64,000 nucleotides of DNA from Escherichia coli O157:H7 (lineage in GTDB: Bacteria; Pseudomonadota; Gammaproteobacteria; Enterobacterales; Enterobacteriaceae): the NCBI RefSeq assembly GCF_013167455.1, contig NZ_CP038328.1; one strand, 5' to 3'. The stretch's first letter is position 1, and every line of letters starts with the position of its first letter. The position numbers are program-made. Below, one piece after another: positions 30,001 to 33,000 of this stretch.

Positions 30001-33000
30001 AACGAACCTGATTCGCCAGCAATGCCTGAATTTGCTTGACGAGCGTTGCAGCCTCTTCTTTGAAATCTGCCGCATGCGTAATCATGGGCTTTTCCCCGTG
30101 CAGTAATGACAAATAATCATTACTGGTATCCGCTTCGCCATCGAGGTTATCAACCTTCACACCAGTTAACAGCCCAACAGCAAATTGACGCGTCTCTTCT
30201 GTGGTCCGATAGTTAATCTTCAATTTTTTACTGCGACGACCACGGACGTTAATACCACACTGACCAAGAACGACCTTATTGCGATAAATACGCTGATGCC
30301 CATCCCCGACAATAAACAGATCGTTGGGCGACTCGGGAACCAGGCTGCGAATAAGAGTAAATGCCGGGGCACCGATATCTTGAGCTTCATCGACCACAAT
30401 ACTGCTATAAGGTAGTTGGACCTGCTTTTCTTTAAACAGAACAATAGCCTCATGCATGGCATCGCCCATTTCGCGCAGTTTGGCACGCGCCATTTGTGCT
30501 CTGAATTCTTCAAAGACTGGCCAGATTTTCGCCCGTTGAATACGGGATAACGCTGTACCACGTCCAACCCGGCTGACTTTGAGGTATTCCTCCCGGGTGT
30601 AAACCGCATTTGGCTGGACAACGCGTTGCCACTCTTCAGCATAGAAATTATCAGGTAGCCCCAGTTCGGCAGGTGCCTGCTGCAAGGCATAGTTCCAGCA
30701 TTTGCGTCGCCCTTCATCGCTGTCGTATACCACGCGGAAATCATAACCGTGGCGTTTTAGTTGGTCGCTCATCCAGGCATCAATGTTAACGACGTCAATA
30801 CGCGCCATCTCTTCTCGCGTACACAACCGCTGGAGATTAGCGCGAATATCTGCCGCCAGGTTACGCGTAAAGGTCGTGAAAAGTACTTTCTTACCGGGTT
30901 TATCTGCCAGACGCTGAGATAACCACCGCGCACGGTGCATCGCAACAACCGTTTTCCCTGTACCTGCACCGCCCAGTACTCGTACCGGACCATTAGCGGG
31001 CGACTCCACCAATTTTCGCTGGCTCGGATGCAGAAATACACGCCATTTTTCTAAAGGCGCATTAAGCATCTGCAACAGCTCCTGTTCATTTTCAACGACA
31101 TGGAAGCGACGTTTACTTCGTTCAATCGCCTCCATAAAGTCGTTGGTATCAACAGGCTCATCACGATGATCGTTAAACTCTTCCAGCACTTCCTGGTAAT
31201 CCAGCCCTTCTGCCAGCCAGTGCAGAGGTTCCCAGGCTTCTGCTGGCATTATGCTTTCAAGTTGATTAAGCCCGGCTTCATCGGTAAGCGCCATCACCTG
31301 ATCAATAAAGACAGGCGGCACACCCAGAGCCAGAATCTGTTCCGCGCTGTAAGCAGCGAAGAGTTTCGGTTTATCAACCACTGTTTCCGCTGCCGGTTTG
31401 ATATAGCTAATATCAATGACCTGAATCGCGCCGGTAACCGGGTGAATTGAACAATCATGCCGCCGCGCCCAGTCATATGCTTCGTCGTGTTTATCCACCC
31501 ACATCAGCATATACAGGGCACCCTGTTCAGGTTTCAGAACAATGCCGCGATAAGTTTGATCGATTCGCACCGAATGGACATTTTTACTGCGCGCATCGTG
31601 GATCTTTTCATAGTTAAGTCCATTACTGGTCGGGTCCTGACGGAATTTGGAGATGAATTCCTGCACCTTTTTTTGCTGTGCCTTTGGGATCCGCGCGAAT
31701 GCGCCCAGAAAACCATCAGAAAGTGCCACCTTGGGCGTTTGCACCGTCATTTGTCACCTCCGGACAGATGTTGCAATGTATTTTCGTCAATTGGCCCGAA
31801 TGCAACGTGCCAACCCCTGGTTGTGAATAATGGAATAAATTCTTGATTATCAATAATCAATGCCCATTTTTGTGATGGCCAGGCGAGATCGGCTTCCGCA
31901 ATAATTTCACCTTCATCATTTTGCAATTCGTAGCCGAGAGTCGGCGCAGAGAGAGAATGAGACTGAAGCAACGCGATCTCTTCAGCGCTTAATAAGCCAA
32001 ACTCAATAATCTCAGCCCAACTCTCATCAGTCTCTGGTACTGCCTCTGGCGTTGCCGAAACTTTAGTGTCAACGCTTTCCTGCGGTAAATGCACGGCTTT
32101 ACGGCTGGTAAAGGTCATATCCGGCAGGAACTGTAACAGGTTTACCAGTCGCCAGAAGCCATTGAGTCCCGCTTCATAACCGTCATCCTGCGTATAGCGA
32201 TCGTCAAAACAGATATGCAAACGCAGCCAGCTGCGCATTTGTGCGACGCTGGTCGTCGGTTTAATGGCTTGTTGTGGTAACACCGAAGCCAGCTCAATAA
32301 ATTGCTGCGATGAGTTACAGCTATCGAGTAAACCACCAAAGACAAACGGTTCGTCTGGCAAAAGCTCTGCTAGCCGCCAAGCTGGCGCGTTTTCCTGCAT
32401 TTCATAGGCATACTTTTGTTTCGTTCCCGCGTCCTGTGACTTCTTCACATCCAACCACACCCAGGCATGTGCAGCAGCCATTCTCTGCCATAACTGCGTT
32501 CTTCCGCCCGGATCGGCGAGATAATCCAGCAGCAGTGCAAAACTGTTGCGTTCCCGGAACGACGCTTCAAGGGCCGCAAAGTTGGTATCATGAAACAGGT
32601 TATAAAACTTAGGCTGTTTCATATCCGGGTTATGCCCAAGTCCCAGGACATCCTGAACATGTTTAAGCCCTGGCTCTTTGAGATCGGCCCACGTGACTGT
32701 CCACACCCAGAAATTACCGCTATCCCGAATCGCCTGGCGTTTTTGCACATCCTCTGCGACGCTATTTTTGTGGAACGCAAAGCCATCAAGGAAAATAGCC
32801 ACCGGTTTAATGGCATCAGACTGCATAAGCGGATATAGCACGTAATCCGGGCGACAAGGGATCCCCACCGCCTCTTTAGCGCCTAAATCCACCTGAGCTT
32901 TAAGATGCCAGCTCATCATCGGTTCGCTGCGGGTGTTAATAATCCACCCAGCGCCCTGATGCGCGTAACTGCGACTGACAATCAGGTTTTTATTTTCTTG

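What the first reader, a model, noticed from the sequence alone, without database searches (positions are those of the whole stretch)
31007..31750. Unassigned N-terminal domain (about 230 aa) on the UvrD-like ATPase
The Walker A motif (GGAGTGKT) only appears around residue 250; the preceding region (MTVQTPKVALSDGFL...YRGIVLKPEQGALYMLMWVDKHDEAYDWARRH...) has no helicase motif I recognise. In defence systems such extra domains are often the sensor or effector part.
Basis: inference. Interest (0 to 1): 0.55.

Follow-up and report, generated by a model that had tools for sequence, protein, structure and literature searches.

The report
RelE-like toxin domain on ArmD helicase
The extra 240 residues in front of this UvrD-like ATPase are real and fold on their own as a RelE/YoeB-type RNase "toxin" domain plus a small acidic helical module, but a 2025 preprint already describes this exact protein as ArmD of the ARMADA type II anti-phage system.

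Summary
ORF 29636-31750 (-) encodes a 704-aa protein. Its UvrD/GajB-like ATPase starts at residue 241, with Walker A at 260-267 rather than about 250. Pfam and NCBIfam assign nothing to residues 1-240.

The region is not a UvrD 1A/1B extension. AlphaFold2 (pLDDT 93, pTM 0.87) gives four parts:
- Residues 114-131: a variable linker.
- Residues 201-242: a connector to the motor.

E48, R62, R68, H88 and W94 are 98-100% conserved in about 260 homologues. They fall at or near the positions of YoeB/YafQ/RelE catalytic residues.

The gene is the last of four: SNF2 helicase, methyltransferase, YprA helicase, then this protein. The cluster lies beside Druantia III and Zorya II in E. coli O157:H7. Bell et al. 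(bioRxiv 2025.09.15.676423) name the cluster ARMADA type II. [quoted passage not shown]

The finding is therefore already known. Still open are whether the RelE-like domain is catalytically active, what restrains it, and what the acidic module does.

The parts
29636..31750 (-). armD: 704-aa protein with a RelE-like domain, a helical module and a GajB/UvrD-like SF1 ATPase (WP_000218177.1)
   Evidence: ORF and translation. 100% nucleotide identity to the annotated CDS in E. coli O157:H7. The same accession is named ArmD in PMC12458937 Table S2.
31412..31738 (-). Residues 5-113: RelE/YoeB/YafQ-fold domain (strand, two helices, four strands, helix 88-97, extra hairpin 98-113)
31358..31411 (-). Residues 114-131: poorly conserved linker of variable length
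   Evidence: Its length ranges from 15 to 31 residues in 34 homologues. The columns are gappy and unconserved. pLDDT dips to 78-88.
31151..31357 (-). Residues 132-200: acidic five-helix module with no recognisable relatives
31025..31150 (-). Residues 201-242: connector (helix, strand 216-218 with invariant F216, two helices, then PLEKWRVFLHP) leading into helicase domain 1A
   Evidence: pLDDT is 91-95 for residues 201-230 (77 for 231-240) in the 1-242 model but only 50-59 when residues 1-125 are left out. F216, P232, L233, W236, R237 and F239 are invariant.
29636..31024 (-). Residues 243-704: GajB-like UvrD-family SF1 ATPase/helicase
   Evidence: Pfam UvrD-helicase 4.8e-23 and UvrD_C. PADLOC GajB 2.4e-36.
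30950..30973 (-). Walker A GGAGTGKT, residues 260-267 (K266)
   Evidence: K266A abolished defence in PMC12458937.
31755..31761 (-). Shine-Dalgarno GGAGGTG for armD. The armD ATG (31748-31750) overlaps the armC stop TGA (31747-31749).
   Evidence: The same 4-nt overlap with the upstream MZB-domain gene is seen in L004, L005 and L006.
31747..38088 (-). armC: 2113-aa YprA/DruE-like DEAH helicase-nuclease
   Evidence: PADLOC DruE3 4.9e-104 and DruE1 9e-97. K110 and D234 match the residues mutated in the paper.
38088..43022 (-). armB: 1644-aa PglX/DrmMI-like type IIG-like DNA methyltransferase
   Evidence: PADLOC REase_MTase_IIG 1.7e-286 and DrmMI 6e-57. N971 (NPPW) and G605 match the paper.
43025..45883 (-). 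armA: 952-aa SNF2 (DrmD/BrxHII-like) helicase
   Evidence: NCBIfam DISARM_DrmD 4.4e-104, which is below its cutoff. PADLOC DrmD 1.4e-99. K136 and D236 match the paper.

Best explanation
The 248 codons encode the N-terminal region of ArmD, the fourth protein of an ARMADA type II anti-phage system (ArmA SNF2 helicase, ArmB methyltransferase, ArmC YprA helicase-nuclease, ArmD).

The region has four parts:
- Residues 5-113: a basic RelE/YoeB/YafQ-fold domain.
- Residues 114-131: a flexible linker.
- Residues 132-200: a strongly acidic five-helix module of unknown ancestry.
- Residues 201-242: a connector that packs back on the RelE-like domain and leads into a GajB-like SF1 ATPase.

Shown here: the fold, the domain boundaries, the invariance of E48/R62/R68/H88/W94, the fixed architecture, and the fixed position after the YprA gene.

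Shown by others: the system defends against phages without abortive infection. armD deletion and ArmD K266A abolish defence in a plasmid reconstruction, and an armD deletion has a milder effect in EDL933.

Inferred: the RelE-like domain is an RNA-binding domain and probably an RNA-cleaving effector (probability about 0.55 that it is catalytically active, about 0.3 that it needs the ribosome). No antitoxin gene is present, so I infer that it is held in check within the same polypeptide and released or positioned by the ATPase cycle of the fused motor and by its partner ArmC.
For: Identity:
- 100% DNA identity to the CDS for WP_000218177.1.
- That accession is listed as ArmD with a 'RelE-like domain' and a 'GajB-like helicase domain' in PMC12458937 Table S2 (text).
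- All eight residues mutated in that paper are present at the stated positions in the four window proteins.
- The same locus is described as OI-172 z5894-z5902 in bioRxiv 2025.09.22.677730.

Fold:
- AF2 mean pLDDT 93, pTM 0.87.
- The Foldseek top 50 likewise, probability 0.91-1.00. They include Cami1, a CARF-RelE fusion.
- 12 of 34 homologues give weak Pfam ParE_like hits, and JGI labels some fragments RelE.

Active site:
- Conservation in about 260 homologues: E48 98%, R62 100%, R68 100%, H88 99%, W94 about 100%.
- hhalign against YoeB pairs E48 with E46, R62 with R59 and R68 with R65. One of the two alignments reaches H88 and pairs it with Tyr84, one residue from catalytic His83.
- hhalign against RelE pairs H88 with R81 and Y92 with Y87.

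Charge: the RelE-like domain has mean pI 8.9, and the helical module mean pI 4.3.

No antitoxin ORF: armD overlaps armC, and IS debris lies downstream.

Packing: residues 196-242 are modelled confidently only when residues 1-125 are present.
Against: - Sequence-level support for RelE membership is weak. The query has no Pfam hit, a PDB profile search finds no toxin at E<10, my hhalign E-values are 0.045-0.8, and the paper's HHpred E-value is 0.0085.
- The residue correspondences come from low-significance alignments that differ by one position around H88. I could not superpose coordinates.
- ARMADA is reported as direct and non-abortive, which fits poorly with a global mRNA-cleaving toxin.
- The RelE-like domain itself has never been mutated.
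- The armD deletion is only partly defective against Bas18 in EDL933.
- ARMADA type I works without ArmD, so ArmD may be an accessory rather than the killing step.
Confidence: 0.85

Rival explanations
1. The RelE-fold domain is catalytically dead. It serves as a docking or recognition domain that binds RNA, the ribosome or ArmC, and the invariant polar residues form a binding surface rather than an active site.
For: Defence is non-abortive. There is no antitoxin gene. The conserved 4-nt overlap with the gene encoding the YprA/MZB protein suggests a stoichiometric ArmC-ArmD complex. Residue correspondences to the catalytic sites rest on weak alignments.
Against: Near-100% conservation of a Glu, two Arg and a His at the topological positions of YoeB/YafQ/RelE catalytic residues, across clusters at 50% identity or less, is what an enzyme site looks like. 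Related fusions such as Cami1 are active ribosome-dependent RNases, but I know that from the literature rather than from these tools; the PDB hit shows only that Cami1 carries the fold and binds the 70S ribosome.
Confidence: 0.3
2. The domain is ParE-like rather than RelE-like. It would act on a DNA-bound enzyme such as gyrase or a topoisomerase, not on RNA, which would suit a DNA-centred system.
Confidence: 0.1
3. The region is an ordinary N-terminal extension of UvrD subdomains 1A/1B with no fold of its own.
For: None found. Residues about 232-242 (PLEKWRVFLHP) do run straight into the start of the Pfam UvrD-helicase match at 241.
Against: Residues 1-242 fold confidently without the helicase. 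Residues 5-113 match stand-alone toxins of 80-95 residues over nearly their whole length. GajB profiles begin at ArmD residue 240.
Confidence: 0.02

Closest known systems
ArmD of ARMADA type II (Bell et al., bioRxiv 2025.09.15.676423 / PMC12458937; E. coli NCTC 12900)
   Same: It is the same protein accession (WP_000218177.1) in the same four-gene order next to Druantia III and Zorya II. K266 and D454 are at the same positions. [quoted passage not shown]
   Different: Nothing differs in the object itself. The paper's assignment rests on one HHpred hit (E=0.0085), and it neither mutates nor dissects the domain. Added here: a structure-based confirmation, the four-part anatomy, the conserved catalytic-like residues, and the unassigned acidic module.
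Type II toxin-antitoxin mRNA interferases RelE, YoeB and YafQ
   Different: The domain is fused to a 460-residue ATPase instead of standing alone. There is no antitoxin gene. It carries an extra beta-hairpin (98-113). No Pfam toxin model is matched. Activity and ribosome dependence are untested.
Cami1 (CARF-RelE fusion of type III CRISPR; PDB 8phb, 8phj)
   Different: In Cami1 the controlling domain is a cyclic-oligoadenylate sensor. Here it would be an SF1 ATPase, plus an acidic helical module.
GajB (Gabija) and NERD-UvrD defence helicases (PADLOC C3a187, RTasNERD-Hel)
   Same: The motor half of ArmD is GajB-like (PADLOC 2.4e-36). In the NERD-UvrD family a nuclease-type domain occupies the same N-terminal position in front of the same motor; ArmD 240-692 aligns to profile positions 197-542.
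   Different: GajB has no N-terminal domain and works with the OLD-family nuclease GajA, which is absent here. The N-terminal module here is RelE-like, not NERD.

Membership tests
ARMADA type II, component ArmD | [quoted passage not shown] | tested here: met
   PADLOC and NCBIfam assignments of the four co-directional ORFs 43025-45883, 38088-43022, 31747-38088 and 29636-31750. The definition is in PMC12458937.
ARMADA type II, component ArmD | Sequence identity with the published ArmD (WP_000218177.1) and presence of the residues that were mutated | tested here: met
   100% DNA identity to the CDS carrying that accession. The accession is in Table S2. K266 and D454 are present, as are ArmA K136/D236, ArmB G605/N971 and ArmC K110/D234.
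ARMADA type II, component ArmD | Anti-phage activity that depends on armD | not testable with these tools
   Reported by others. Deletion and K266A abolish defence against HK022. Deletion has a milder effect against Bas18 in EDL933.
RelE/ParE toxin superfamily (fold level) | Compact alpha/beta fold: N-terminal strand, helical hairpin, antiparallel sheet of 3-4 strands, C-terminal helix | tested here: met
RelE/ParE toxin superfamily (sequence level) | A significant match to a curated toxin profile (Pfam RelE/ParE/YoeB/YafQ/HigB models) | tested here: not met
   The query has no Pfam hit in residues 1-240. Only 1 of 34 homologues reaches E<=0.001, to ParE_like. A PDB profile search finds no toxin. 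hhalign E-values are 0.045-0.8.
RelE/YoeB/YafQ mRNA interferases (enzyme) | Catalytic residues: general acid/base plus transition-state Arg/Lys and a stacking aromatic (YoeB E46/R65/H83/Y84; RelE K52/K54/R61/R81/Y87; YafQ H50/H63/D67/H87/F91) | tested here: inconclusive
   E48, R62, R68, H88 and W94 are 98-100% conserved, and Y92 is 80% conserved. They align to or next to these positions. The alignments are statistically weak, and no 3D superposition was possible with these tools.
Type II toxin-antitoxin module | An adjacent small antitoxin gene | tested here: not met
   The armD start overlaps the armC stop. Downstream there are only IS remnants. No small conserved partner gene appears in the five loci read with DNA, L002-L006.
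RelE/YoeB/YafQ mRNA interferases (enzyme) | Ribosome-dependent cleavage of mRNA in the A site | not testable with these tools
   This needs biochemistry.
UvrD/GajB-like SF1 helicase | UvrD-helicase and UvrD_C domains with Walker A and Walker B motifs | tested here: met
   Pfam 241-490 and 509-693. GKT at 265-267 and DEAQ at 454-457.
Gabija system | GajB paired with the OLD-family nuclease GajA | tested here: not met
   The neighbouring genes are ArmA, ArmB and ArmC. No GajA match was found among them.

The most novel reading that the evidence does not exclude
ArmD would be a single-chain toxin-antitoxin-motor. A catalytically competent YoeB/YafQ-like RNase (residues 5-113, basic) is masked in cis by the conserved acidic five-helix module and by the strand at 216-218. 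It is unmasked only when the fused SF1 ATPase, working with ArmC, engages phage nucleic acid. That would give an otherwise DNA-directed, restriction-modification-like system a local RNA-cleaving arm, acting for example on transcripts or ribosomes coupled to the invading DNA, without killing the cell.
Probability: 0.2. Interest if true: 0.6.

Novelty: already known. Interest (0 to 1): 0.25.

Why it matters
ARMADA type II is one of the main reasons EHEC O157:H7 resists therapeutic phages, and its mechanism is unknown.

ArmD is the part that separates type II from type I. Its RelE-like domain is the only element of the system that points to RNA rather than DNA. Knowing whether that domain cuts RNA, and how it is kept harmless without an antitoxin, would show how a toxin fold has been built into a non-abortive defence.

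For this scan, the practical result is that the finding is a correct catch of a real extra domain, but one that has already been published.

Tried and rejected
1. Sequence searches of the N-terminus against PDB, as a single sequence and as a 34-sequence profile, found only chance hits: rubredoxin, Ceg14, RSV P and MCM4.
4. I looked for stand-alone or differently fused versions of the domain. The short hits (220-420 aa) are contig-end fragments or broken genes in decayed loci (L005 Stieleria, L006). The long hits (1391-1595 aa) have the same N-terminus and motor plus a C-terminal extension.
5. Mutual information with APC correction on 213 non-redundant sequences, used to look for contacts between the RelE-like domain and the helical module, gave a few inter-domain pairs (74-162, 74-171, 105-137, 105-141) among mostly intra-domain ones. 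There are too few sequences to separate contact from phylogeny, so this is inconclusive.
6. Profile-to-sequence hhalign against YafQ gave no usable alignment.
7. The tools return no model coordinates, so I could not test whether the conserved residues cluster in space or whether the acidic module occludes them.

Full report
**Observation.** The window has an ORF at 29636-31750 on the minus strand that encodes 704 residues beginning MTVQTPKVALSDGFL. The coordinates in the finding, 31007-31750, are codons 1-248. Pfam places UvrD-helicase at 241-490 and UvrD_C at 509-693, and gives nothing meaningful before residue 241. NCBIfam and PADLOC matches to PcrA, Rep, UvrD and GajB also begin near residue 240, and the GajB profiles start there at their own position 3-8. 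The start codon has a GGAGGTG ribosome-binding site and overlaps the stop of the upstream gene in an ATGA.

**Where this is.** The DNA is 100% identical to E. coli O157:H7 chromosomes, and 533 of 5426 complete E. coli genomes carry the gene. In strain PV15-279 the product is WP_000218177.1, "UvrD-helicase domain-containing protein".

It is the last gene of a co-directional row:
- DruH and DruE of Druantia type III, at 52421-55780 and 46107-52430.
- An SNF2 helicase like DrmD/BrxHII, at 43025-45883.
- A 1644-aa methyltransferase like PglX/DrmMI, at 38088-43022.
- A 2113-aa helicase like DruE/YprA, at 31747-38088.
- The UvrD-like protein.

Zorya type II (zorA, zorB, zorE) is transcribed divergently at 55935-59465.

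- The paper defines ARMADA type II as exactly this four-gene array. [quoted passage not shown]
- The system tested came from E. coli NCTC 12900. [quoted passage not shown] That is the accession of the window's protein.
- All residues mutated in the paper (ArmA K136/D236, ArmB G605/N971, ArmC K110/D234, ArmD K266/D454) are present at those positions in the window's four proteins.
- The paper reports that deleting any gene abolishes defence, that ArmD K266A abolishes it and D454N weakens it, and that protection is direct and non-abortive.
- It does not mutate or further analyse the RelE-like domain.

A second preprint (bioRxiv 2025.09.22.677730) describes the same locus as O-island 172 of EDL933. 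It notes that an armD deletion is less defective than the other deletions against Bas18, and it describes ArmD only as a UvrD-like NTPase.

**Independent test of the fold.** I collected homologues of residues 1-242. There are more than 230 at 40-50% identity, from Planctomycetes, Desulfobacterales, cyanobacteria and others, and some fragments are labelled RelE by JGI. I aligned 34 of them and predicted the structure.
- The model is confident: mean pLDDT 93, pTM 0.87.
- The top 50 Foldseek hits are the same families. Stand-alone toxins are covered at target TM-score 0.50-0.78, and probabilities are 0.91-1.00.
- At the sequence level the relationship is faint. The query has no Pfam hit, 12 of 34 homologues give weak ParE_like hits, a PDB profile search finds no toxin, and hhalign E-values are 0.045-0.8.

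**Anatomy.**
- Residues 5-113 form the RelE-like domain: strand 7-11, helices 12-20 and 23-38, strands 47-49, 58-62, 67-72 and 79-87, helix 88-97, and an extra hairpin at 98-113.
- Residues 114-131 are a poorly conserved linker of 15-31 residues in the family.
- Residues 132-200 form five short helices at pLDDT 94-98.
- Residues 201-242 contain a helix, a short strand at 216-218 with invariant F216, two helices, and the invariant PLEKWRVFLHP that runs into the helicase.
- Modelled without residues 1-125, the helical module stays confident (pLDDT about 90), but residues 196-242 fall to 50-59. The connector therefore leans on the RelE-like domain.

**Is the toxin site intact?** Across about 260 homologues, which include representatives of clusters at 50% identity or less, the most conserved polar residues of the domain are E48 (98%), R62 (100%), R68 (100%), H88 (99%), D89 (97%), W94 (about 100%) and Q110 (98%).
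- Alignment to YoeB, whose sequence I verified against 2A6Q, pairs E48 with the catalytic E46, R62 with R59 and R68 with the catalytic R65. The global alignment, the only one that reaches the C-terminus, pairs H88 with Tyr84, one residue from catalytic His83.
- Alignment to RelE, verified, pairs H88 with R81 and Y92 with Y87.
- By motif and secondary structure, H88 at the start of the C-terminal helix also corresponds to YafQ H87, and Y92 to F91. This rests on inference; only the YafQ sequence itself was verified.
- These alignments are individually insignificant, and I could not superpose coordinates. The statement "the catalytic constellation is preserved" is therefore an inference, though a consistent one.

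**Charge pattern.** The RelE-like domain is basic (family mean pI 8.9, net +3.2), as mRNA interferases usually are. The helical module is strongly acidic (mean pI 4.3, net -8.8; -14 in this protein). There is no antitoxin gene: armD overlaps armC, and only IS debris follows it. Together with the packing evidence above, this suggests that the toxin-like domain is restrained within the same chain. An attempt to support this by residue covariation was inconclusive.

**Distribution and context.**
- A profile of the N-terminal region finds 3388 cluster representatives at E<=1e-3, and 690 at E<=1e-30.
- In the best 150, the match always sits at residues about 1-250. Complete proteins are about 680-750 residues, which is the same architecture.
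- Four representatives of 1391-1595 residues carry the same N-terminus and motor plus a C-terminal extension. In one of them the extension contains RNA polymerase alpha-CTD-like and sigma-70 region 4 domains.
- In every neighbourhood that could be read, the gene lies directly after a gene with an MZB (DUF1998) domain, in most cases a YprA-like helicase. It often shares the same 4-nt overlap, and a methyltransferase lies upstream where the contig reaches that far. A PLD gene sometimes follows it, and in one locus a YhcG-type nuclease lies between the helicase gene and armD.
- The short "stand-alone" hits are fragments or decayed loci.
- I found no other ATPase partner for this domain.

**Mechanism.**
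- Shown: the region is a RelE-fold domain plus an acidic helical module on a GajB-like motor, in a fixed position behind ArmC. The system needs ArmD's ATP-binding site (from the paper).
- Inferred: the domain binds and probably cuts RNA (about 0.55). Its activity is gated in cis and by the motor and ArmC rather than by an antitoxin. It acts locally, which would reconcile a toxin fold with non-abortive defence.
- Rivals: an inert docking or recognition domain (about 0.3), and a ParE-like protein-targeting domain (about 0.1).
- The helicase-extension reading is excluded.

**Verdict.** The domain, the protein and the system were published in September 2025, so the finding is already known. The structure-based confirmation, the conserved catalytic-like residues, the linker, the unassigned acidic module and the lack of an antitoxin are refinements that turn into concrete experiments. 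They are not a new discovery.

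Noticed in passing
window 55935-59465 (+): Complete Zorya type II operon (ZorA2 1.3e-302, ZorB2 2.2e-104, ZorE2 4.2e-176), divergent from druH. 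Together with Druantia III (46107-55780, -) and ARMADA II, it forms the O-island 172 defence array described in two 2025 preprints.
   Followed up: yes
window 59850-60857 (+): A 335-aa ORF with PADLOC HNH and type IV methyl-directed restriction hits. RefSeq annotates it as 'phosphorothioated DNA-binding restriction endonuclease'. It is a fourth defence gene in the island, next to a truncated integrase.
   Followed up: partly
window 31747-31990 (-), ArmC residues 2021-2096: The last ~90 residues of ArmC match the ZorE HNH-endonuclease profile (PADLOC ZorE2 5.8e-9; NCBIfam anti-phage_ZorE 3e-4). The ARMADA paper describes the ArmC C-terminus as Vsr-like and EEP-like domains. A ZorE-like HNH tail beside a Zorya II operon may deserve a look.
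   Followed up: no
window 31747-31750; L004, L005 and L006 at 10001-10004: The armD start overlaps the stop of the upstream MZB-domain gene by 4 nt (ATGA in the window) in E. coli. The same 4-nt overlap, seen in the gene coordinates, occurs in three distant metagenomic or genomic loci. This suggests translational coupling and a stoichiometric ArmC-ArmD pair.
   Followed up: partly
L004 10001-14788 (P0242); also P0230, P0246, P0261: Long ArmD variants (1391-1595 aa) carry the same RelE-like N-terminus and GajB-like motor plus a 650-850-aa C-terminal extension. In P0242 the extension contains two RNA polymerase alpha-CTD-like repeats and a sigma-70 region 4 HTH.
   Followed up: partly
L003 8089-8886; L005 15650-16441: A small PLDc_2 (DrmC-like) gene directly follows the ArmD homologue in one metagenomic locus. 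In L005 (Stieleria) a similar PLDc_2 gene lies about 4.5 kb downstream, next to a second MZB fragment. In another locus a YhcG-type PD-(D/E)xK nuclease gene sits between the YprA helicase gene and armD. Accessory nucleases around ArmD vary.
   Followed up: no
L005 (Stieleria bergensis CP036272.1) and L006: Decayed ARMADA-like loci. The ArmD homologue is truncated at 377-409 aa, the MZB/YprA gene is fragmented, and recombinase or transposase genes lie nearby.
   Followed up: partly
window 25246-28142 (+) and about 28400-29000: IS remnants lie immediately downstream of armD. RefSeq annotates an IS3-like IS1203 transposase with a programmed frameshift, an IS4 fragment and IS66-family genes in the matching O157 record. 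They mark the edge of the island next to the nan and fim genes. The window contains no tRNA gene.
   Followed up: partly
window 22001-26000 and 52001-60000: G+C drops to 0.38-0.41, against about 0.50 elsewhere in the window. The low stretches cover druH, the Zorya operon and the IS/fimB-fimE region, which is consistent with mosaic horizontal origin.
   Followed up: no
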